Positions 1,275-7,059 of a DNA stretch of 13,009 nt are shown here, in pieces. Each line of letters opens with the position of its first letter. The stretch's first letter is position 1. The notes beneath the pieces are model-generated. The model ran no database searches, was not told the DNA's origin, and worked only from the letters and a program-made list of their open reading frames with translations. The translations under genes and the position numbers were made by a program. The DNA is from a bacterium (GTDB lineage: Bacteria > Patescibacteriota > Patescibacteriia > CAIQCM01), in the NCBI GenBank assembly GCA_023246535.1, contig JAHFIF010000001.1, positions 14,688 to 27,696 of the forward strand, given 5' to 3'.

Positions 1275-3074
1275 TTAGCCGACAGGCTTGTCGCTGGCGG
1301 GCGGAACCGCGGTTCCCCCGAGGCGCTGCGACAGGCCTTGGACCAGACCGGTGAGCGTGCTGAGAGCAGTCATGGCCGCAGCCTGTGTCTGCGGGCCGGC
1401 CGCGTCGAGGAAACCCTCGGCGTTGTTGGCAATGCCCATGCCGTTCTTGAGTGCGCCGAGCAAGTTGGCGACGTCTTCGTGCGTGCCGACGACCGTGCCG
1501 GTGATCTTGCTGACCAGCGTCGCGGTGGCTCTGGCCGACTCGATCCGGACCTCAGCTTCCTTGCTGACACGCAGCTTGGCAAGCTCGAATTCCTGTGCCG
1601 CGGAGCCGTGTTTTTCGCGGGCCTCGAGCTCGTTCTGGAGCACTTCGACCCGGCGTTGTTCGACGTCGACCTCGGCCTTCTTGACCGTGATCGGCACCAT
1701 CTGCTCGGCCTGGAGACCTTCGGCGCGTTTTTTCGCGGCGGAGGAATCGGCGTCGGCTTTGGTCGTGATGGCCAAGGCATCGGCTTCGGATGCGGCTTTG
1801 CGACCCTCGGCGTTGGCCTTGAGGGTGTAGGCTTCGGCATCGGCAGCGCGCTGCTTGGTGACGTACTGGGAATCAGCCGCGCCTTTGGCGGCGATGACCT
1901 GTTTTTGCTGTTCACGATCGGCCTCGGCCACGACCGTCACGGTCGTAACGTCTTGGCGGGCTTTCTCGGCCTTGGCCTCGGCCTCGGCTTGCGTCTGAAC
2001 CGACCTGGCCTTCTTGGCCTCGGCCTCGGCAATGGCGGACAGCTTTTCACGAGTCGCGACTTCGATCGCTTCCAGCTTCTGCTGTTCCGCGACCTGCGTC
2101 GCCTTGTCTTTCTCGACGCCCTTGATCGCGATTGCTTGTTCGGTCTCGAGCCTCTTCTGTTCGGCCTCTTGGCGTTTCTGGGCGGTGATGATGGCGATTT
2201 GCGCCGCTTGCCCTTGTTCCGCCGTGGCCCTCTCTTGATCGAGCAAGAGGATGGCTTTGCGCGTTGCGACATCTTGGGAAGCACGGGCCTGATCGCCTTC
2301 CTTTTCCAGCGTGTTGACCTCGGTCTTCTTCTTCTGGACGATGGCGGCGATCGTCGCCAATCCCTGCGCGTCGAAGATGTTGTCGGCGCGCAGCTGCGAT
2401 TTTTCGGTCTGGTCGAGCTTGGAGATGGTCGCCACTTCGAGCGTGAGCCCGTTGTGCTTCAGGTCCGGGGAAACGATGCCGGTGACTTCTTTGACAAAGG
2501 CATCGCGTTCGGAGTTGAGCTCCTCGAGCGTCTTGGTCGCGGCCACCGTCCGCAAAGCGGAGATGAGCTTGTCCTCGACCAGCGTCTCCACCGGCGATTT
2601 TCCCAATCCGTTGCGGCCGTTGTCGCGGGCGTATTCCATCACGCCGCCGAACGAACGAGCCGCTGCCTGAATGCTGTCGCTGTCGGGCATGACGCGGACG
2701 AAGAATTCGGCCTGGACGTCGGCACGCAGCTTGTCTTTGGTGATGAGAGCGTCCTTACCCTCGCGTCCGACCGGCAAGCGCAGGGTCTTGAGCGAGATGG
2801 ACACGACCTGATGGATGACCGGCACGACTAGGCATCCGCCATCCATGATGACCTTGATGCCGCCCATGCCGGTGCGGACGAATGCCTCGGAGGCCGTCGT
2901 TTTCTTGTACAGCTTGGTGATCGTGAGGATGATGCTGGCGACGACGGTGACGGCGATGCCGCACACCATGAGGATGGTTGTCGGCAAAGCGCCGAGCGAG
3001 TGGTTGGCGGCGTTGGCCGCGACTGGCCCGATCAGCATCACGAGCCCGAAGATGATCAATATGACAGCGCCCAT
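1275..3074 (-). CDS. Flotillin-family SPFH/Band-7 protein (FloT/YqiK-like), 599 aa. It has N-terminal hydrophobic segment(s), an SPFH domain, and a long Ala/Glu/Lys/Gln-rich coiled-coil with EA repeats.
   Basis: The residues …ILTITKLYKKTTASEAFVRTGMGG… align with the FloT N-terminus and SPFH core. There is an extended AEAEAKAEKA-type repeat region. SD AAGGAGAA precedes the ATG at 3074. It is paired with an NfeD gene immediately upstream, as in yqiJK/yuaF-floT. Confidence 0.9.
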   Translation of the reverse strand: MGAVILIIFGLVMLIGPVAANAANHSLGALPTTILMVCGIAVTVVASIILTITKLYKKTTASEAFVRTGMGGIKVIMDGGCLVVPVIHQVVSISLKTLRLPVGREGKDALITKDKLRADVQAEFFVRVMPDSDSIQAAARSFGGVMEYARDNGRNGLGKSPVETLVEDKLISALRTVAATKTLEELNSERDAFVKEVTGIVSPDLKHNGLTLEVATISKLDQTEKSQLRADNIFDAQGLATIAAIVQKKKTEVNTLEKEGDQARASQDVATRKAILLLDQERATAEQGQAAQIAIITAQKRQEAEQKRLETEQAIAIKGVEKDKATQVAEQQKLEAIEVATREKLSAIAEAEAKKARSVQTQAEAEAKAEKARQDVTTVTVVAEADREQQKQVIAAKGAADSQYVTKQRAADAEAYTLKANAEGRKAASEADALAITTKADADSSAAKKRAEGLQAEQMVPITVKKAEVDVEQRRVEVLQNELEAREKHGSAAQEFELAKLRVSKEAEVRIESARATATLVSKITGTVVGTHEDVANLLGALKNGMGIANNAEGFLDAAGPQTQAAAMTALSTLTGLVQGLSQRLGGTAVPPASDKPVG

Positions 3075-3111
3075 TGGTTCTCCTTTTCTTTCCGTAACGT
3101 TGTTGGTATCT

Positions 3112-3753
3112 CTACTGGTTGTGATTGTAAGCTTCGATCAGGTACGTGTCGTCTCCTTCCCTGTAGTCGATGATGATGGCTTCGCTGCCGCGCGGCAGCT
3201 CCTCTCCGTCGGTCCGGCAATCGACCTGCTTCAGGTCGCGTTGCTTGTCGTAGACTTGGATCACGCCGGATGTGGCGCTGGCCGCGACGACCAGGGTTCC
3301 GGTGCAGCCGATGATCGCTCTCTTGGAGAGAGCGCTCGTTTCAAGCGTCGGAACGACGCGATGGAACAGCTTGGCGATCTTCCCGGTGAGGAAGGTCATC
3401 GCGACGAAGGAGGCGATCAGCGAGATCCATCCGTAGGCGGCCGGAAAGCGGAGAATTGGCGCGAGCAGCCGGTTAGCGACCGTGCCGGTCACGCCGAAAA
3501 TGAGGGCCGCGATCATAAGGAGGACGGTGATCGGGATTTTACCAACCCCGAAGAGCATGAAGGCGCGATTGAGCGCGCCCTGTTCATGTTCGTGGTTTCC
3601 GTCGGTATCATGGTGCACGTCGTGCTGAATGTCATGGCTCAGGTCATGTTCGGCCTCATGGCCGAACCCTAGGGCCAGCCCGAGCGCGAGCAGAATGCCG
3701 ATCATGAGCGGGATGTTGAAAATCAAATTCTGCCATGCAAATAGCGTCTCCAT
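3112..3753 (-). CDS. NfeD-like (YqiJ/YuaF family) membrane protein with a C-terminal OB-fold domain, 213 aa. Carries a His/Asp-rich loop.
   Basis: TM helices followed by a C-terminal beta-rich domain (…GCTGTLVVAASATSGVIQVYDKQRDLKQVDC…) typical of short NfeD. It sits immediately upstream of the flotillin gene on the same strand with a 37-bp gap. SD-like AAAGGACAGG precedes the ATG. Confidence 0.85.
   Translation of the reverse strand: METLFAWQNLIFNIPLMIGILLALGLALGFGHEAEHDLSHDIQHDVHHDTDGNHEHEQGALNRAFMLFGVGKIPITVLLMIAALIFGVTGTVANRLLAPILRFPAAYGWISLIASFVAMTFLTGKIAKLFHRVVPTLETSALSKRAIIGCTGTLVVAASATSGVIQVYDKQRDLKQVDCRTDGEELPRGSEAIIIDYREGDDTYLIEAYNHNQ
3583..3660 (-). repeat. In-frame 12-nt periodic tract encoding (H-D/E-x-x)n, HEAEHDLSHDIQHDVHHDTDGNHEHE, with 8 His in 26 residues.
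   Basis: Recurrent ..catg.. units are visible on the + strand at about 12-nt spacing. The translation shows His every 4th residue. Confidence 0.6.
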
Positions 3754-3869: not shown

Positions 3870-3896
3870 TAGAGAGAATAAACGCCTTTAAGGATT

Positions 3897-3929
3897 AAAA
3901 AACGCCCGTTCACAAAGCGTGAACGGGCG
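3897..3929 (-). terminator. Rho-independent terminator of the gene 3940-4995.
   Basis: 11-bp stem cgcccgttcac/gtgaacgggcg with loop aaagc at 3903-3929. On the - strand it is followed by TTTTTTAATCC (+ strand A6 at 3897-3902). It lies 10 nt past the stop (3940-3942). Confidence 0.7.
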
Positions 3930-3939
3930 AAACGAGGCG

Positions 3940-4995
3940 TTATTTTGTTGGGAAGAGCGGCAGATTGCCGAGAGCGATGACGTCGGGGCGCGTCCCGCCT
4001 TCGGTGTAGGCGGCCATGACGGCGCCTTCTTCGGCGTGCGCTAGCGCGAGAAGCTGGCGCACCGCGATCAGCGTGCCGCCGGTCGAGACGACATCGTCGA
4101 CGATCGCGACTTTGAGACCGCTGATGCGGTCGGCGTCATCGCGGCCGAGGAACAGGTGTTGGATCTTGTCGGTCGTGATGCTTCGGAAGCGGACCTTCAA
4201 AGCCGGCGCCGCCATGTAGGGCTTGAGCTCCTTTCTGGCGACGAAGGTCGGCAGGTTGGCGATCCGTCCCATCACGTGGAGGAGCGCAAGCGCCTTGCCG
4301 TCGGGCATGAGCAAGGCCTGCGTTCCTTTGGGAATCAACTTGACCAGCTCGGCGCCGATCGCTTCGGTCAATTCCCAGTCGCCCAGCAAGTTGAAGAGCG
4401 CGACGCGAACGCCGGGCGCCACTTCACGGATCGGCAGGTCGCGAAAGACGTTGCCAATCACAATGCGGTAGGTCTCGGTTTGGCCTGTAGGTTTTTCCGC
4501 CCACTTGGCCAAGGCCTTGATTACCGCCTCGGTGATGAAGACCGAACGCGATTTCCTTCCGCCGGTCAGATAGAGATGCGGGTCGTCATGGCGCGAACCG
4601 ACGTTCTCGGCGAGAACTTGTCCAGCCGTGACCTTGTCAAAACCGCGGCGGCGCGCTTCGTCGACGATGTGGGCCGGAAAGACCACGGCCTCGGACTCGG
4701 CGACCGATTCGCTGCCATCCGGGGCGATCACGACGACCACGGCCACGTCGACGGTATTGAACGGCGTGCGGCGCAGGCCGTTCTCGATCCCGATGGCAAA
4801 GGCGTTGGGAAACTTTCGATGCGCGGCCAGGGCGCGATTTCGTGCGCCGGTTTCGATCTCGTCTTCTTTGGGCTGCGGTGGCACGCCCGAATCGGATTCG
4901 GTCGTGTGATCGAGCGGTCCGTAGTGAAGAATGTCCAAGGCGGCCTGAACGCCGTTGGCCTTTAGAATGCTGGTCGACGAAAGTGCGAATTCCAT
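3940..4995 (-). CDS. Two-domain fusion protein (351 aa): an N-terminal YjjX-family (NTPase_I-T / DUF84) inosine/xanthosine triphosphatase domain, and a C-terminal type-I phosphoribosyltransferase domain (APRT-like).
   Basis: The N-terminal half carries …SGVPPQPKEDEIETGARNRALAA…FAIGIENGL…HLYLTGGRKSRSVFITEAVIKAL, matching the YjjX signature SGVPEQP…GARNR…AIEAGI…GKLTRASVYHQAVILAL. The C-terminal half carries the PRPP-binding motif KVAIVDDVVSTGGTL. Strong SD AAAAAGGAGAAcc precedes the ATG at 4995, with a textbook promoter upstream. Confidence 0.75.
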   Translation of the reverse strand: MEFALSSTSILKANGVQAALDILHYGPLDHTTESDSGVPPQPKEDEIETGARNRALAAHRKFPNAFAIGIENGLRRTPFNTVDVAVVVVIAPDGSESVAESEAVVFPAHIVDEARRRGFDKVTAGQVLAENVGSRHDDPHLYLTGGRKSRSVFITEAVIKALAKWAEKPTGQTETYRIVIGNVFRDLPIREVAPGVRVALFNLLGDWELTEAIGAELVKLIPKGTQALLMPDGKALALLHVMGRIANLPTFVARKELKPYMAAPALKVRFRSITTDKIQHLFLGRDDADRISGLKVAIVDDVVSTGGTLIAVRQLLALAHAEEGAVMAAYTEGGTRPDVIALGNLPLFPTK

Positions 4996-5044
4996 GGTTC
5001 TCCTTTTTCAAAGTTCGATGCCGATTTAAAGACAGGAACCGCTT

Positions 5045-5073
5045 ACCATACTTGTTTTATTGCCATTTGTCAA
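5045..5073 (-). promoter_or_regulatory. Sigma70 promoter for 3940-4995: -35 TTGACA (5068-5073), 17-bp spacer, -10 TATGGT (5045-5050).
   Basis: On the - strand: TTGACAaatggcaataaaacaagTATGGT, about 50 nt upstream of the ATG. Confidence 0.55.
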
Positions 5074-5112
5074 TGGTCGGGGTGCTCCGTCGCGCGAATA
5101 TGCTCAGGGAAT

Positions 5113-5138
5113 AAAAAAGGCCCGACTTTGGTCGGACC
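5113..5138 (-). terminator. Rho-independent terminator of the gene 5149-5625.
   Basis: Stem ggcccgac/gtcggacc (one mismatch) with loop tttg at 5119-5138, followed on the - strand by TTTTTT (+ strand A6 at 5113-5118). It lies 10 nt past the stop (5149-5151). Confidence 0.6.
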
Positions 5139-5148
5139 GAAGGCGACG

Positions 5149-5625
5149 CTATTGCATCGCATGTTGCGGAATGAGTTGTCTCACTTTCCAGGTCCAGGCG
5201 CGGGCCTTGCGCTTGCGTCCGCCGCGGCTGGCGCGCCGGAATTCGCGTTCGCCATACCCGCCGCGCCGGGCCAGGCGCTCGGCATCAATGATCCGGTCGC
5301 GGCTTTCGGCAAAGCGCTCTCTTTCCAGCGTGTCGAGATGCAGCCTGATGAAATTGGTGAGCGGCAACTTTTCGGGCTTGCCCGACTCACGCTTGATCTC
5401 AACTTCTATCTCTTGCGCCGTTTTCCAAACGGTCAGCGACAGCGCGTCATAGACGTCGTCCTCGGTAACGGGCGACGGAATGACGATGCCGAGCGCGATG
5501 AAGATAACCACGATCACGATGAACGTCCAAGCGGCGTAGTAGAGCACGGCGCCGAGCAGTCCGAGGCCGGCCAGCGCGATCACGGCCAGCAGCAGGAGCA
5601 GTGTTGCCAAGGTCTTTTTGTTCAT
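5149..5625 (-). CDS. Small membrane protein (158 aa): two N-terminal TM helices followed by a cytoplasmic, highly basic C-terminal region. Function unknown.
   Basis: Good SD GGAGGTG 6 nt upstream of the ATG at 5625. It has hydrophobic helices (LATLLLLLAVIALAGLGLLGAVLYYAAWTFIVIVVIFIALGIVI), its own promoter and its own terminator. Confidence 0.65.
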   Translation of the reverse strand: MNKKTLATLLLLLAVIALAGLGLLGAVLYYAAWTFIVIVVIFIALGIVIPSPVTEDDVYDALSLTVWKTAQEIEVEIKRESGKPEKLPLTNFIRLHLDTLERERFAESRDRIIDAERLARRGGYGEREFRRASRGGRKRKARAWTWKVRQLIPQHAMQ

Positions 5626-5645
5626 TAAGGCACCTCCGAAAAATG

Positions 5646-5674
5646 AATTTACAACAGTTCATGCGCCATGTCCA
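5646..5674 (-). promoter_or_regulatory. Candidate promoter for 5149-5625: -35 TGGACA (5669-5674), 17-bp spacer, -10 TAAATT (5646-5651).
   Basis: On the - strand: TGGACAtggcgcatgaactgttgTAAATT, about 20 nt before the SD. Confidence 0.4.
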
Positions 5675-5708
5675 CCGGATAATGCCGCGCCCCGCAATCA
5701 AAGCAATT

Positions 5709-5738
5709 AAAAAGAGCGATCATTTGATCGCTCTTTTC
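5709..5738 (-). terminator. Rho-independent terminator of the nitroreductase gene.
   Basis: Perfect inverted repeat agagcgatca-tt-tgatcgctct (5713-5734), flanked by A5 (5709-5712/13) and T-runs, so U-tracts are available on either strand. It lies 12 nt past the stop at 5747-5749. Confidence 0.65.
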
Positions 5739-5746
5739 GTTTCCTG

Positions 5747-6382
5747 TTATTTCATTTCGATAAAGAATTTTTCTTTCGGGAAGCGCACTTTTTTCAATTT
5801 GGCGTATTCGTCGTCGGCGGCGCGGAAGCCGACGGCGACGGCGACGGCGGTGGTCAGATTAAGTTTTTCTAAGCCCAAGACATCATCGAATCCTTTGCGA
5901 TCAAAGCCTTCCATCGGCGTGGCGTCGATCTCATTCATCGCGGCCGCGGTCAAAAGCGTGCCCAACGCGATGTAGGCCTGGCGCGCCGCCCAAGCGGTAT
6001 TTTGCTCCGGTGAATTGTTGGCGATCGACCCCAGGATCATTTTGTGATATTCGTTGAAAGTATCGTTGGGCTGGTTGCGAACGGCCGCCGTGAGACCGAT
6101 GAATTCGTCGACCGTCTTGATGCCCAGATCGGTTTTGGCGGCGAAGACCAAAAAGTGCGAAGCGTCGGTGATCGGCGATTGGCCGTAGCCCGCCGCGCGC
6201 AGCTTGGTGCGAAGGTCGGGCGCGTCAACGATGATGACGCGAAACGGCTGGAGGCCGAAGGAGGTGGGCGCCAAGCGCACCGCTTCCAACAGCGTCGCCA
6301 GTTGTTCACCGGTCAATTTTTTCGCCGGGTCGTATTTTTTCGTGGCATAGCGCCAATTAAGCGATTCAATCAGATTTTTCAT
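5747..6382 (-). CDS. Oxygen-insensitive NAD(P)H nitroreductase (NfsB/NfnB family), about 212 aa.
   Basis: MKNLIESLNWRYATKKYDPAKKLTGEQL… aligns with the NfsB N-terminus ([26 protein letters not shown]…). Family motifs are present throughout. The ORF is open up to 6463, but the extension (MARLTDFVYSINRAMMIYRFCEFNAKP) has no homology-like character. The SD is weak at every candidate start. Confidence 0.8.
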   Translation of the reverse strand: MKNLIESLNWRYATKKYDPAKKLTGEQLATLLEAVRLAPTSFGLQPFRVIIVDAPDLRTKLRAAGYGQSPITDASHFLVFAAKTDLGIKTVDEFIGLTAAVRNQPNDTFNEYHKMILGSIANNSPEQNTAWAARQAYIALGTLLTAAAMNEIDATPMEGFDRKGFDDVLGLEKLNLTTAVAVAVGFRAADDEYAKLKKVRFPKEKFFIEMK

Positions 6383-6472
6383 AGGTTTGGCATTAAATTC
6401 GCAAAAGCGATATATCATCATAGCCCTGTTTATCGAATATACAAAGTCCGTCAATCGCGCCAAAAGCCGTTT

Positions 6473-6500
6473 TTGATTTTATCGGCCGGCCGTGTAAGAT
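6473..6500 (+). promoter_or_regulatory. Candidate promoter for 6546-7034: -35 TTGATT (6473-6478), 16-bp spacer, -10 TAAGAT (6495-6500).
   Basis: TTGATTttatcggccggccgtgTAAGAT, followed by an approximately 45-nt leader with strong SD AAAAAGGAGAT 6 nt before the ATG. Confidence 0.4.
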
Positions 6501-6545
6501 ACCGCCGAAAGCAGCAAGCGCTTTCATGAGAAAAAGGAGATAGCC

Positions 6546-7034
6546 ATGAAGCCACGGATTTATATCGCCAGTCCGCTGGGTTTTTCCGAAGCCGGGCAGT
6601 ATTGGTACTACAACGTTCTGGTTCCATTGGTCGAACGGTGCGGGTTCGAAGTCGTTGATCCATGGAAACTGACCGCGCCGGCCATCATCAAGACGGCGAT
6701 GTTTTCGCCGGAAGGGCCGGAACAGCGGCGCGCTTGGGAGGCAGCCAACAAGATCATCGGCGAGAATAACGAACGCGGCATCCAGACCAGCCATCTGGTG
6801 CTCGGTCTGCTGGACGGCCCCGATGTCGACAGCGGCACGGCCAGCGAAATCGGGTTCGCCGCCGGCATCAACAAGCCGATCGAAGGATACCGCAACGATT
6901 TCCGTTTGGCCGGCGACAATATCGGCTCGCGGATCAATCTGCAGGTCGAACACTGGATCAGGCGGATGGGCGGGGTAATTTCGCCCGACCTCAAAGCGCT
7001 CGAAACGGTTCTGCAGGAACGAAAGTTCATCTAG
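6546..7034 (+). CDS. Nucleoside 2-deoxyribosyltransferase-family protein (NDT / DNPH1(Rcl)-like N-glycosidase fold), 162 aa.
   Basis: The N-terminal PRIYIASPLGFSE aligns with the NDT KTIYFGAGWF. …LLDGPDVDSGTASEIGFAAGINKPIEGYRNDFR matches the NDT catalytic-Glu region (…DVGLGMELGYA…). A strong SD is present. Confidence 0.7.
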   Translation: MKPRIYIASPLGFSEAGQYWYYNVLVPLVERCGFEVVDPWKLTAPAIIKTAMFSPEGPEQRRAWEAANKIIGENNERGIQTSHLVLGLLDGPDVDSGTASEIGFAAGINKPIEGYRNDFRLAGDNIGSRINLQVEHWIRRMGGVISPDLKALETVLQERKFI

Positions 7035-7059
7035 TCAGCGGTCGCTCCGTCCGATCGTT

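What the first reader, a model, noticed from the sequence alone, without database searches (positions are those of the whole stretch)
3940..4995. Fusion of a YjjX-type ITPase/XTPase to a phosphoribosyltransferase in one polypeptide
The N-terminal ~175 residues carry the YjjX/DUF84 signature blocks (SGVP.QP … GARNR … AIE.G … TxGxxxRSxxxxxAxIxAL). The C-terminal ~165 residues are a type-I PRTase with an intact PRPP loop (VAIVDDVVSTGGT) and APRT-like upstream blocks. YjjX proteins are normally stand-alone ~170-aa house-cleaning enzymes for ITP/XTP. Fusing one to a PRTase, which makes NMPs from bases plus PRPP, implies a coupled purine salvage and sanitation activity. The NTPase domain could alternatively act as a nucleotide-sensing regulatory domain. 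The gene has its own strong promoter, SD and terminator.
Basis: partly seen in the sequence, partly recalled or inferred. Interest (0 to 1): 0.6.

Follow-up and report, generated by a model that had tools for sequence, protein, structure and literature searches.

The report
NTPase fused to adenine phosphoribosyltransferase
One real gene encodes a DUF84/YjjX-type nucleotide triphosphatase joined to a Thermus-type adenine salvage enzyme, a rare, recurrent and unstudied fusion that elsewhere usually sits in an operon with a PRPP synthase, which ties the poorly understood DUF84 family to purine salvage.

Summary
Window 3940..4995 (-) is one 351-aa ORF. Residues 10-165 match Pfam NTPase_I-T/DUF84. 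Residues 174-350 match NCBIfam NF005592 and are about 50% identical to Thermus APRT2 (5zgo). An AlphaFold model (pLDDT 94) matches both folds.

It is not an artefact. The identical protein occurs in three independent assemblies, and 60 distinct fusion sequences were retrieved (24 clusters at 50% identity).

- Two MAGs carry the same two domains as separate, translationally coupled genes.
- Two proteins have the reverse order, PRT then DUF84.
- In six verified loci a class II-type PRPP synthase lies immediately upstream. These include the closest relative, at 79% identity.
- In the window that TrmB-orf94-prs block has been replaced by a small membrane-protein gene. The fusion is left monocistronic, with its own promoter-like site, SD and terminator.

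Best reading: a bifunctional adenine salvage enzyme plus purine-NTP phosphatase from a PRPP synthase-DUF84-APRT module, probably in a Patescibacteria-like organism. Both activities, and how they are coupled, are inferred rather than shown. The N domain does not reach the YjjX equivalog cut-offs.

It is a new variant of known kinds and of moderate interest.

The parts
3940..4995 (-). Complete fusion gene, 351 aa, ATG at 4995 and TAA at 3940-3942
   Evidence: ORF list and sequence. The identical protein is found in NCBI, ENA and Logan assemblies.
4501..4968 (-). N-terminal DUF84 / NTPase_I-T domain (residues 10-165; the domain as a whole is about residues 1-168)
   Evidence: Pfam PF01931 E 2.2e-20. 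Foldseek to YjjX 1u5w at TM 0.80-0.83. K12, S36, Q41, P42, G50, A51, R54, E71, G73, T123, G125 and R150 are invariant in 36 fusions.
4474..4500 (-). Inter-domain linker (about residues 166-174, AKWAEKPTGQTE)
   Evidence: pLDDT falls to about 78 here, and pTM is only 0.58 despite pLDDT 94. The linker corresponds to the stop/start overlap in the split genes of L002 and L004.
3946..4476 (-). C-terminal type I phosphoribosyltransferase domain of the PRK07322 / Thermus APRT2 kind (residues 174-350)
   Evidence: NF005592 169.8 bits, above the 143 cut-off. 5zgo E 1.4e-43 by sequence and TM 0.95 at 50% identity by structure.
4072..4110 (-). PRPP-binding loop VAIVDDVVSTGGT (residues 296-308)
   Evidence: Read directly from the sequence. 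D300, D301, V302 and S304 are invariant in 36 fusions.
5000..5005 (-). Shine-Dalgarno-like AAGGAG, four bases upstream of the ATG
   Evidence: Read from the sequence.
5045..5073 (-). Sigma-70-like promoter match TTGACA-17-TATGGT
   Evidence: Consensus scan, 10 of 12 matches. This is a consensus match only.
3893..3929 (-). Intrinsic-terminator-like hairpin (12-bp stem, 8 GC pairs) plus T run, directly after the stop codon
   Evidence: Consensus scan.
4996..5745 (-). Replacement segment: a 158-aa predicted membrane-protein ORF (5149..5625), its terminator (5138..5119) and the fusion gene's promoter. It occupies the place where the closest relative has TrmB-orf94-PRPP synthase.
   Evidence: blastn of window against L176. 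Collinear blocks of 79-84% identity lie on both sides. L176 4235-6635 has no counterpart in the window, and homology resumes exactly at the ATG.

Best explanation
The gene encodes a two-domain enzyme that arose by fusing two neighbouring, translationally coupled genes of a purine salvage module.

The C-terminal domain is an adenine phosphoribosyltransferase of the Thermus APRT2 / PRK07322 kind (adenine + PRPP gives AMP + PPi). The N-terminal domain is a DUF84 (YjjX-superfamily) nucleoside triphosphate phosphatase. It most likely removes non-canonical or unwanted purine NTPs that arise when bases taken from outside are salvaged.

The two domains are joined by a flexible linker. They probably act independently, so the fusion would enforce equal co-expression rather than substrate channelling.

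In most relatives with enough flanking DNA the module is TrmB-type regulator | class II-type PRPP synthase, then DUF84-APRT. In this window the regulator and synthase have been replaced, and the fusion gene is transcribed alone.

What is shown:
- the architecture and the intact motifs
- recurrence of the fusion
- the split and reverse-order forms
- adjacency to prs
- loss of prs from this locus

What is inferred: both enzyme activities, the substrates of the N domain, and the logic of the coupling.
For: Domains:
- The Thermus enzyme TthAPRT (gene TT_RS06315) is experimentally an APRT that prefers 6-aminopurines and shows some promiscuity: allopurinol 57%, guanine 26%, hypoxanthine 6% conversion (PMC6317416). 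That TthAPRT is the protein of 6fsp is my inference.

The fusion is real and under selection:
- The identical protein occurs on three independent assemblies.
- 41 full-length homologues appear, 24 N-to-C fusion clusters at 50% identity, and 60 fusion sequences in all.
- The signature residues of both domains are invariant.

Functional linkage:
- Split duf84 then prt genes occur in L002 (4-bp ATGA overlap) and L004.
- Reverse-order PRT-DUF84 proteins P0194 and P0227 carry the same PRT subfamily.
- Stand-alone and fused N domains are interleaved in a neighbour-joining tree. A stand-alone protein, P0191, is the nearest N-domain relative outside the window's own 77% group.

PRPP synthase:
- It lies immediately upstream in L083 (4-bp overlap), L086, L176, L177, L002 and L004.
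- It is about 50% identical to plant class II PRS4.

Organism and locus:
- The neighbouring IscS has its best named matches in Patescibacteria/Uhrbacteria.
- That such organisms mostly lack de novo purine synthesis is background knowledge.
- The local loss of prs is shown.
- About 160 loci with stand-alone PRK07322-type PRTs (Deinococcota, Clostridia, Chloroflexota) have no DUF84 gene nearby, so the link is specific to this clade.
Against: - No enzymology exists for any member of the fusion family, and no paper was found on it.
- The N domain is far below the curated cut-offs of the YjjX equivalogs (TIGR00258 51.6 vs 117.1; NF003459 35 vs 175).
- It differs from YjjX at two motif positions. 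Its N-terminal motif reads GSxSxxK, and from my recollection of the E. coli sequence the YjjX equivalent is TTNPAK. The residue before SGV is Glu in YjjX (VESGVP) but variable here. Its substrate may therefore not be ITP/XTP.
- The N domain evolves faster than the C domain: 40-48% versus 55-73% identity among fusions.
- A close PRT relative, 7f06 / AgmE, uses a non-ribose sugar diphosphate.
- Five contexts lack prs nearby (L001, L085, L088, L096, L178).
- The window's own source of PRPP is unseen.
- The salvage-plus-sanitation logic is an argument from analogy: from my own knowledge, APRT activates base analogues such as 6-hydroxylaminopurine and ITPase-type enzymes remove the products. It was not tested here.
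Confidence: 0.5

Rival explanations
1. The N-terminal DUF84 domain is a nucleotide-sensing regulatory domain. It binds a purine NTP and adjusts APRT activity allosterically, with little or no turnover.
For: - The N domain diverges faster than the C domain.
- It differs from YjjX at two motif positions and scores below the equivalog cut-offs.
- PRT domains are known partners in sensor architectures such as B. subtilis PurR, which appears among the fold matches.
Against: - The same motif set is invariant in fused and in stand-alone members of the subfamily.
- The domains also exist as separate genes and in the reverse order. That is hard to reconcile with a specific allosteric interface.
- pTM of 0.58 with pLDDT of 94 and a low-confidence linker suggests no fixed interface.
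Confidence: 0.15
2. All three proteins form one pathway in which DUF84 acts on an intermediate or by-product of the PRPP synthase / PRT reactions. One form would be a self-contained cassette that rebuilds adenine nucleotides from adenine and ribose phosphate. Another would make a non-standard nucleotide, by analogy with the AgmC/AgmE pair of angustmycin synthesis.
For: - The prs-duf84-prt order is conserved with overlapping stop and start codons.
- There is a precedent for a Prs homologue working with a PRK07322-type PRT on allulose 6-phosphate (PMC8599513; 7f06).
- One fusion sits on a phage-like 104-kb contig beside thymidine kinase, a DNA polymerase and an NDT-like gene.
- Giant-virus proteins align over both domains, and 727-743-aa 'ribose-phosphate diphosphokinases' are among the fold matches.
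Against: - The adjacent synthase is about 50% identical to genuine plant class II PRPP synthases.
- No epimerase, dehydratase or other tailoring gene accompanies the module.
- The window's gene works without an adjacent prs.
- The PRT is closer to Thermus APRT2 (50% identity) than to 7f06 (about 41%).
Confidence: 0.2
3. The fusion is an assembly or frameshift artefact that joins two separate genes.
For: Split versions of the same two genes exist in L002 and L004, with only a 4-bp overlap between them. A single-base error could therefore fuse them.
Against: - The identical 351-aa protein occurs in three independent assemblies.
- 60 distinct fused sequences exist, with a conserved linker length.
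- The closest relative, at 79% identity, is also fused.
Confidence: 0.02
4. It is a component of an anti-phage defence system, since PRTase-type effectors occur in some such systems.
For: A weak PADLOC match to ShosT (E 0.0027), confined to the PRPP loop.
Against: - There is no significant PADLOC family match.
- The neighbours are housekeeping genes: flotillin/YqiJ, nitroreductase, EamA, a glycosyltransferase and IscS/NifU.
- The conserved partner is a PRPP synthase.
Confidence: 0.02

Closest known systems
E. coli / Salmonella YjjX (inosine/xanthosine triphosphatase; PDB 1u5w, 1u14) and V. cholerae VC0702 (1zwy)
   Same: Same fold (TM 0.80-0.83), same Pfam family PF01931 and the same signature blocks: SGVPxQP, GAxNR, IExG and the C-terminal T.G...R helix.
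   Different: - About 25-27% identity.
- Far below the equivalog cut-offs.
- Ser where (from my recollection of the E. coli sequence) YjjX has the motif Asn, and the YjjX Glu before SGV is not conserved here.
- It belongs to a distinct subfamily with a DPH...LT.G motif.
- It is fused to a PRTase, whereas YjjX is a stand-alone protein of about 170 aa.
Thermus thermophilus APRT2 / TthAPRT (PDB 5zgo, 6fsp; NCBIfam NF005592, PRK07322)
   Same: - 50% identity and TM 0.95 over the whole C domain.
- Passes the NF005592 cut-off.
- Same PRPP loop and the ARKxxKPYM block.
- The Thermus enzyme is a biochemically shown 6-aminopurine PRTase.
   Different: The Thermus and Deinococcus genes are stand-alone. 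They sit in tandem with a second PRT paralogue (1vch type) and have no DUF84 gene nearby.
AgmC / AgmE of angustmycin biosynthesis (Prs homologue plus APRT-like adenine phosphoallulosyltransferase; 7f06 'adenine phosphopsicosyltransferase')
   Same: A Prs-family diphosphokinase paired with a PRK07322-type PRT. 7f06 matches the C domain at E 6.5e-33 and TM 0.94.
   Different: - There is no DUF84 partner in that pathway.
- That pathway needs an epimerase, a LOG-type hydrolase, a phosphatase and a dehydratase, none of which is seen here.
- The synthase found with the fusion resembles true class II PRPP synthases.
Archaeal bifunctional pantetheine-phosphate adenylyltransferase / NTP phosphatase (NCBIfam NF002250)
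   Same: Another catalogued fusion of a DUF84 domain to a nucleotide-handling enzyme. It shows the family is not always stand-alone (weak match).
   Different: The partner domain and pathway differ (coenzyme A), and the DUF84 domain is C-terminal there.
B. subtilis PurR (PRT domain used as a PRPP / ppGpp sensor; 1o57, 1p4a, 7rmw)
   Same: A PRT fold joined to a second domain. It appears among the fold and sequence matches.
   Different: PurR's partner is a DNA-binding domain and its PRT domain is not catalytic. Here the closest PRT relatives are active enzymes.

Membership tests
Pfam PF01931 NTPase_I-T (DUF84) | Score above the Pfam gathering threshold over most of the model | tested here: met
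   73.6 bits against a cut-off of 25; model positions 5-161 of 162.
Pfam PF01931 NTPase_I-T (DUF84) | YjjX-like fold | tested here: met
   Foldseek to 1u5w, 1u14 and 1zwy at TM 0.72-0.83, E 1e-9 to 1e-12, using a model of pLDDT 94.
YjjX-type inosine/xanthosine triphosphatase (equivalogs TIGR00258, NF003459) | Score above the curated equivalog cut-off | tested here: not met
   TIGR00258 51.6 against 117.1; NF003459 35 against 175; NF003039 42.9 against 199. It is a family member but not an orthologue of YjjX.
YjjX-type inosine/xanthosine triphosphatase | Hydrolysis of ITP/XTP to the diphosphates | not testable with these tools
   Needs enzymology. Only motif conservation could be checked.
NCBIfam NF005592 (PRK07322) adenine phosphoribosyltransferase subfamily | Score above the curated cut-off, full-length match | tested here: met
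   169.8 bits against 143; model positions 2-179 of 180.
Type I phosphoribosyltransferases | PRPP-binding loop: a hydrophobic run, two acidic residues, then S/T-G-x-T | tested here: met
   VAIVDDVVSTGGT at residues 296-308. D300, D301 and S304 are invariant in 36 fusions. The Pfam PF00156 score itself is marginal, 25.3 against 26.3.
Adenine phosphoribosyltransferase (activity) | AMP formation from adenine and PRPP | not testable with these tools
   Inferred from 50% identity to Thermus APRT2 and from published assays of TthAPRT.
prs-duf84-aprt module | A class II-type PRPP synthase gene immediately upstream | tested here: not met
   No prs homologue is found in the window or in 14.7 kb of its contig. 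It is present in L083, L086, L176, L177, L002 and L004.
Known anti-phage defence proteins (PADLOC-DB) | A significant match to a defence-system model | tested here: not met
   Only ShosT at E 0.0027, confined to the PRPP loop.

The most novel reading that the evidence does not exclude
DUF84 is not a general ITP/XTP house-cleaner here. It is the third catalytic step of a portable three-enzyme cassette: class II PRPP synthase, DUF84 and an APRT2-type PRT. The cassette rebuilds or controls adenine nucleotide pools from free adenine and ribose phosphate.

The cassette has been fused in different orders in ultra-small bacteria. It also seems to have been picked up by a phage and, on fold evidence alone, by giant viruses. 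There it could serve to restore nucleotide pools during infection.
Probability: 0.12. Interest if true: 0.7.

Novelty: new variant of a known kind. Interest (0 to 1): 0.42.

Why it matters
The DUF84/YjjX family has solved structures and an in vitro ITPase/XTPase activity. To my knowledge its physiological role has stayed vague.

Three kinds of evidence link it specifically to PRPP-dependent adenine salvage: repeated fusion in both orders, a split form with overlapping genes, and a conserved PRPP synthase neighbour. This gives a concrete, cheap set of experiments on one soluble 351-aa protein.

It also bears on how organisms that live by salvage, probably Patescibacteria here, keep their purine pools clean. 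It shows too that class II-type PRPP synthases, described in the literature as plant-specific (PMC5412264), have relatives of about 50% identity in these bacteria.

If both activities prove ordinary and independent, the finding is a tidy example of gene fusion within an operon and nothing more.

Tried and rejected
- **Assembly or frameshift artefact:** rejected.
- **Defence-system component:** rejected. PADLOC gives only a weak match on the PRPP loop.
- **DUF84 next to the Thermus/Deinococcus APRT2 genes:** the long tblastn matches there turned out to be a second, tandem PRT paralogue of the 1vch type, not DUF84. A scan of all 176 fetched loci found DUF84 only in the fusion clade.
- **Upstream genes of stand-alone PRTs P0052 and P0057:** neither is DUF84.
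- **Phage collections:** IMG/VR scans with the fusion alignment, with P0046 and with P0194 found nothing. An alignment of the divergent fusion clade was too variable to scan with. PHROGs has no family for the window protein. INPHARED holds only stand-alone PRT homologues of 35-40% identity on unannotated gut contigs.
- **Literature:** searches for YjjX/DUF84/PF01931, for phage ATP nucleosidase plus APRT, for Patescibacteria purine salvage and for giant virus APRT returned nothing on this fusion.
- **AlphaFold database library:** not available, so I could not list UniProt entries with this architecture.
- **Taxonomy from cluster names:** uninformative. It was inferred instead from the homologues of the neighbouring IscS.
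Full report
**1. The observation**

Window 3940..4995 on the minus strand is one uninterrupted ORF of 351 codons.

- Pfam places residues 10-165 in NTPase_I-T / DUF84 (PF01931, E 2.2e-20, 73.6 bits against a cut-off of 25).
- Pfam sees the PRPP loop region as Pribosyltran at 25.3 bits, just under the cut-off of 26.3.
- NCBIfam gives a full-length match of residues 174-350 to NF005592 (PRK07322, 'adenine phosphoribosyltransferase', a subfamily model) at 169.8 bits, above its cut-off of 143.
- Against solved structures, the C half matches Thermus thermophilus APRT entries 5zgo and 6fsp at E about 1e-43, the angustmycin-type 'adenine phosphopsicosyltransferase' 7f06 at 6.5e-33, and 1vch at 2e-21. 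The N half matches YjjX (1u14, 1u5w) at about 1e-4.
- An AlphaFold2 model built on 36 homologues has mean pLDDT 94.4.
- Foldseek aligns its C domain to 5zgo ('APRT2 from T. thermophilus HB8') at TM 0.95 and 50% identity. It aligns the N domain to YjjX at TM 0.80-0.83 and 25-26% identity.

**2. The gene's signals**

A consensus scan finds TTGACA-17-TATGGT at 5073..5045. It finds a 12-bp stem terminator at 3929..3903 followed by a T run, directly after the stop codon. It also finds a separate terminator at 5138..5119 that closes the upstream gene. AAGGAG lies four bases before the ATG. The gene therefore looks monocistronic. These are consensus matches, not proof of function.

**3. Not an artefact, and how common**

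The identical 351-aa protein is recorded from an NCBI contig of 45,867 bp. It is also on an ENA contig of 27,834 bp and a Logan contig of 3,021 bp from a different run.

- A word-indexed search of 5.8 billion proteins returned 41 full-length homologues with the same architecture, at 36-79% identity.
- An exhaustive profile search of 1.84 billion cluster representatives found 24 N-to-C fusion clusters at 50% identity among the top 150 hits.
- Classifying all retrieved proteins with domain HMMs gave 60 N-to-C fusions, 2 C-to-N fusions, 52 DUF84-only proteins and 132 PRT-only proteins.
- Sources name the fusion 'DUF84 family protein' or 'adenine phosphoribosyltransferase', in Patescibacteria, Candidatus Binatia and unnamed MAGs.

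The fusion is rare but real, diverse and already sitting in databases. I found no paper about it.

**4. Are both domains intact?**

Across 36 fusions the invariant residues of the N domain are K12, S36, Q41, P42, G50, A51, R54, E71, G73, T123, G125 and R150. Most fall within the blocks shared with YjjX. The PRT domain keeps G233, K234, H240, R254, K255, K258, Y260, M261, D300, D301 and S304.

The closest stand-alone DUF84 proteins carry the same motif set: GSxSxxK, SGVxxQP, GAxNR, GIExG and DPH..LT.G..R. The fused domain has therefore not degenerated relative to its free relatives.

There are differences from YjjX. The N-terminal motif has Ser where, from my recollection of the E. coli sequence, YjjX has Asn. 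The Glu of YjjX 'VESGVP' is variable in this subfamily. The domain is also far below the curated cut-offs of the YjjX equivalog models. It belongs to the family but is not an orthologue of YjjX, so ITP/XTP specificity is a hypothesis.

The N domain also evolves faster than the C domain, at 40-48% against 55-73% identity among fusions.

**5. Evidence that the two domains belong together**

- Two MAGs (L002 and L004) carry the same two domains as separate adjacent genes. In L002 the DUF84 stop and the PRT start overlap by four bases, the ATGA arrangement. The junction of the fused proteins corresponds to that overlap.
- Two proteins, P0194 and P0227, have the opposite order, PRT then DUF84. Their PRT domain again matches PRK07322 best.
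- In a neighbour-joining tree of N domains, fused and free forms are interleaved. Outside its own 77% group, the nearest N-domain relative of the window protein is a free 167-aa protein, P0191, at 53%. The tree is poorly resolved, so this only suggests repeated fusion or fission.
- The link is specific. About 160 loci with stand-alone PRK07322-type PRTs from Deinococcota, Clostridia and Chloroflexota have no DUF84 gene within 5-8 kb. In Thermus and Deinococcus the neighbour is a second PRT paralogue of the 1vch type.

**6. The conserved partner, and what happened in this window**

A PRPP synthase gene lies immediately upstream of the fusion, or of the split pair, in these loci:

| Locus | Arrangement |
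|---|---|
| L083 | 4-bp overlap with the fusion |
| L086 | Patescibacteria contig of 897 kb, 9-base gap |
| L176 | upstream of the fusion |
| L177 | upstream of the fusion |
| L002, L004 | upstream of the split pair |

- A TrmB-family regulator is divergently transcribed in L086, L176 and L177 by Pfam annotation. A similar helix-turn-helix ORF sits in the same position in L004, by my reading of its sequence.
- These synthases pass only the broad TIGR01251 model (118-134 bits, cut-off 113) and have YFPTGTMER in the position where E. coli Prs has YFGYARQDR.
- They are about 50% identical to plant 'ribose-phosphate pyrophosphokinase 4'. Plant PRS3/4 are the class II enzymes: phosphate-independent, not allosterically inhibited by ADP, and broad in diphosphoryl donor. 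A paper describes them as plant-specific (PMC5412264).

L176 carries the closest relative of the window protein, at 79% identity. It is collinear with the window at 79-84% nucleotide identity through the glycosyltransferase, EamA, nitroreductase and fusion genes. Its 2.4-kb TrmB-orf94-prs block (L176 4235-6635) has no counterpart in the window. The window has 750 bp in that place (4996-5745), holding a 158-aa predicted membrane-protein ORF and the promoter-like site. Homology resumes exactly at the fusion's ATG.

Because prs adjacency is shared by distant members, the window most likely shows a derived state in which the gene was cut loose from its operon. No prs is found in the window or in 14.7 kb of its contig.

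**7. Organism**

The neighbouring cysteine desulfurase has its best named matches, at 61-63%, in Candidatus Uhrbacteria and 'Patescibacteria group' bacteria. Several fusion contigs are Patescibacteria. The window (58% G+C) probably comes from a member of that radiation. This is an inference.

From general knowledge, such organisms mostly lack de novo purine synthesis and depend on salvage.

**8. Most likely mechanism**

- The C domain makes AMP from adenine and PRPP. This is supported by 50% identity to Thermus APRT2. Published assays of TthAPRT show preference for 6-aminopurines with some acceptance of allopurinol, guanine and hypoxanthine (PMC6317416). That TthAPRT is the protein of 6fsp is my inference.
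- The N domain hydrolyses purine NTPs, by family analogy the non-canonical ones.
- The flexible linker (pLDDT about 78, pTM 0.58), the split form and the reverse-order form all argue for two independent active sites whose co-expression is what matters.
- The biological logic is an analogy from my own knowledge. Salvage enzymes such as APRT activate foreign or damaged bases, and ITPase-type enzymes remove the resulting triphosphates.

I put 0.5 on this overall. The components carry different weights:

| Claim | Confidence |
|---|---|
| The fusion is real | about 0.95 |
| The C domain has APRT activity | about 0.75 |
| The N domain is an active NTPase | about 0.55 |

**9. Rivals**

- *A sensor role for the N domain (0.15).* Its faster divergence fits this. 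The split and reverse-order forms and the conserved motifs argue against it.
- *A true three-step pathway, or a non-standard sugar as in angustmycin synthesis with AgmC and AgmE (0.2).* PMC8599513 gives the precedent, and the tight operon fits. The synthase's similarity to real class II PRPP synthases, the absence of tailoring genes and the window gene's independence from prs argue against it.
- *Artefact, and defence-system component.* Both are effectively excluded.

**10. Wider leads**

- The most divergent fusion in the alignment, P0046, lies on a 104-kb contig. Its genes match phage families for thymidine kinase, a DNA polymerase and an NDT-like protein, and it also has a Hen1/Pnkp-ligase-like gene.
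- In the viral structure library, the best matches are giant-virus 'adenine phosphoribosyltransferases' of 366-394 aa that align over more than 370 columns, that is, across both domains.
- 'Ribose-phosphate diphosphokinases' of 727-743 aa from Bodo saltans virus and Catovirus also match. These may be two- and three-domain fusions of the same module, but I could not obtain their sequences to check.

**11. Verdict**

It is a new variant of known kinds: an uncharacterised but recurrent fusion of two known enzyme families. The added finding is that it belongs to a PRPP synthase-DUF84-APRT module, from which this copy has been detached.

Interest is moderate. It gives a direct experimental handle on the role of DUF84 proteins, but both parts are familiar enzymes and no unusual chemistry is indicated.

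Noticed in passing
window 4996-5745 (ORF 5149..5625, minus strand): A 158-aa predicted membrane protein with no Pfam match, with its own terminator, occupies the exact place where the closest relative (L176) has a 2.4-kb TrmB-orf94-PRPP synthase block. The flanks are collinear at 79-84% nucleotide identity.
   Followed up: yes
L083 5051-6004; L086 5056-5991; L176 5671-6624; L177 4054-4986; L002 7057-7989; L004 6975-7967: The PRPP synthases next to the fusion are about 50% identical to plant class II PRS4. They carry YFPTGTMER where E. coli Prs has YFGYARQDR. A paper describes class II PRPP synthases as plant-specific (PMC5412264), so these bacterial relatives deserve a look of their own.
   Followed up: partly
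window 6546-7034 (+); L176 3014-3502; L089 11365-11748: A nucleoside 2-deoxyribosyltransferase-family gene lies 1.5 kb from the fusion. In L176 the gene at the same position is on the other strand relative to the fusion and shows no DNA similarity to the window's copy. The phage-like contig L089 also has an NDT-like gene about 4 kb from its fusion gene. This may be a source of free bases for salvage.
   Followed up: partly
L089 (104-kb contig), fusion gene at 6001-7038: A divergent fusion (P0046, 36% identity) sits among small same-strand ORFs. Some match phage families for thymidine kinase, a DNA polymerase and an NDT-like protein. An 864-aa methyltransferase/PNKP_ligase (Hen1/Pnkp-like) gene lies just downstream. 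This is probably a phage genome.
   Followed up: partly
BFVD entries A0A481Z5R8, A0A1V0SKE5, A0A2H4UV84, A0A1V0SA75, A0A3G4ZX02: Giant-virus 'adenine phosphoribosyltransferases' of 366-394 aa align with the model over both domains. 'Ribose-phosphate diphosphokinases' of 727-743 aa also match, possibly as Prs-DUF84-PRT triple fusions. Edafosvirus has a stand-alone 171-aa DUF84 protein. The sequences could not be fetched.
   Followed up: no
proteins P0194, P0227, P0196, P0176: P0194 and P0227 are reverse-order PRT-DUF84 fusions with a lysine/asparagine-rich composition and an altered PRPP loop (ILDSVCTSGGT, IIDSILSSSAT). P0196 and P0176 appear to hold two DUF84 domains in tandem.
   Followed up: partly
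L040 8010-9083; L006 7965-9138: Thermus and Deinococcus carry two PRK07322-type PRT paralogues in tandem, one of the 5zgo/6fsp type followed by one of the 1vch type. The role of the second is unknown.
   Followed up: partly
L002, L004 (record titles): These MAGs are titled 'uncultured Gammaproteobacteria'. Yet they share the prs-duf84-prt gene order seen on the Patescibacteria contig L086 (a TrmB-like ORF also precedes it in L004), so the taxonomic label may be wrong.
   Followed up: no
window 1275-3753 (minus strand): A 599-aa SPFH/Band 7 (flotillin-like) gene with a long coiled-coil tail lies directly downstream of a YqiJ-type (NfeD-like) membrane protein gene. This is the usual pairing of these two families.
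   Followed up: no
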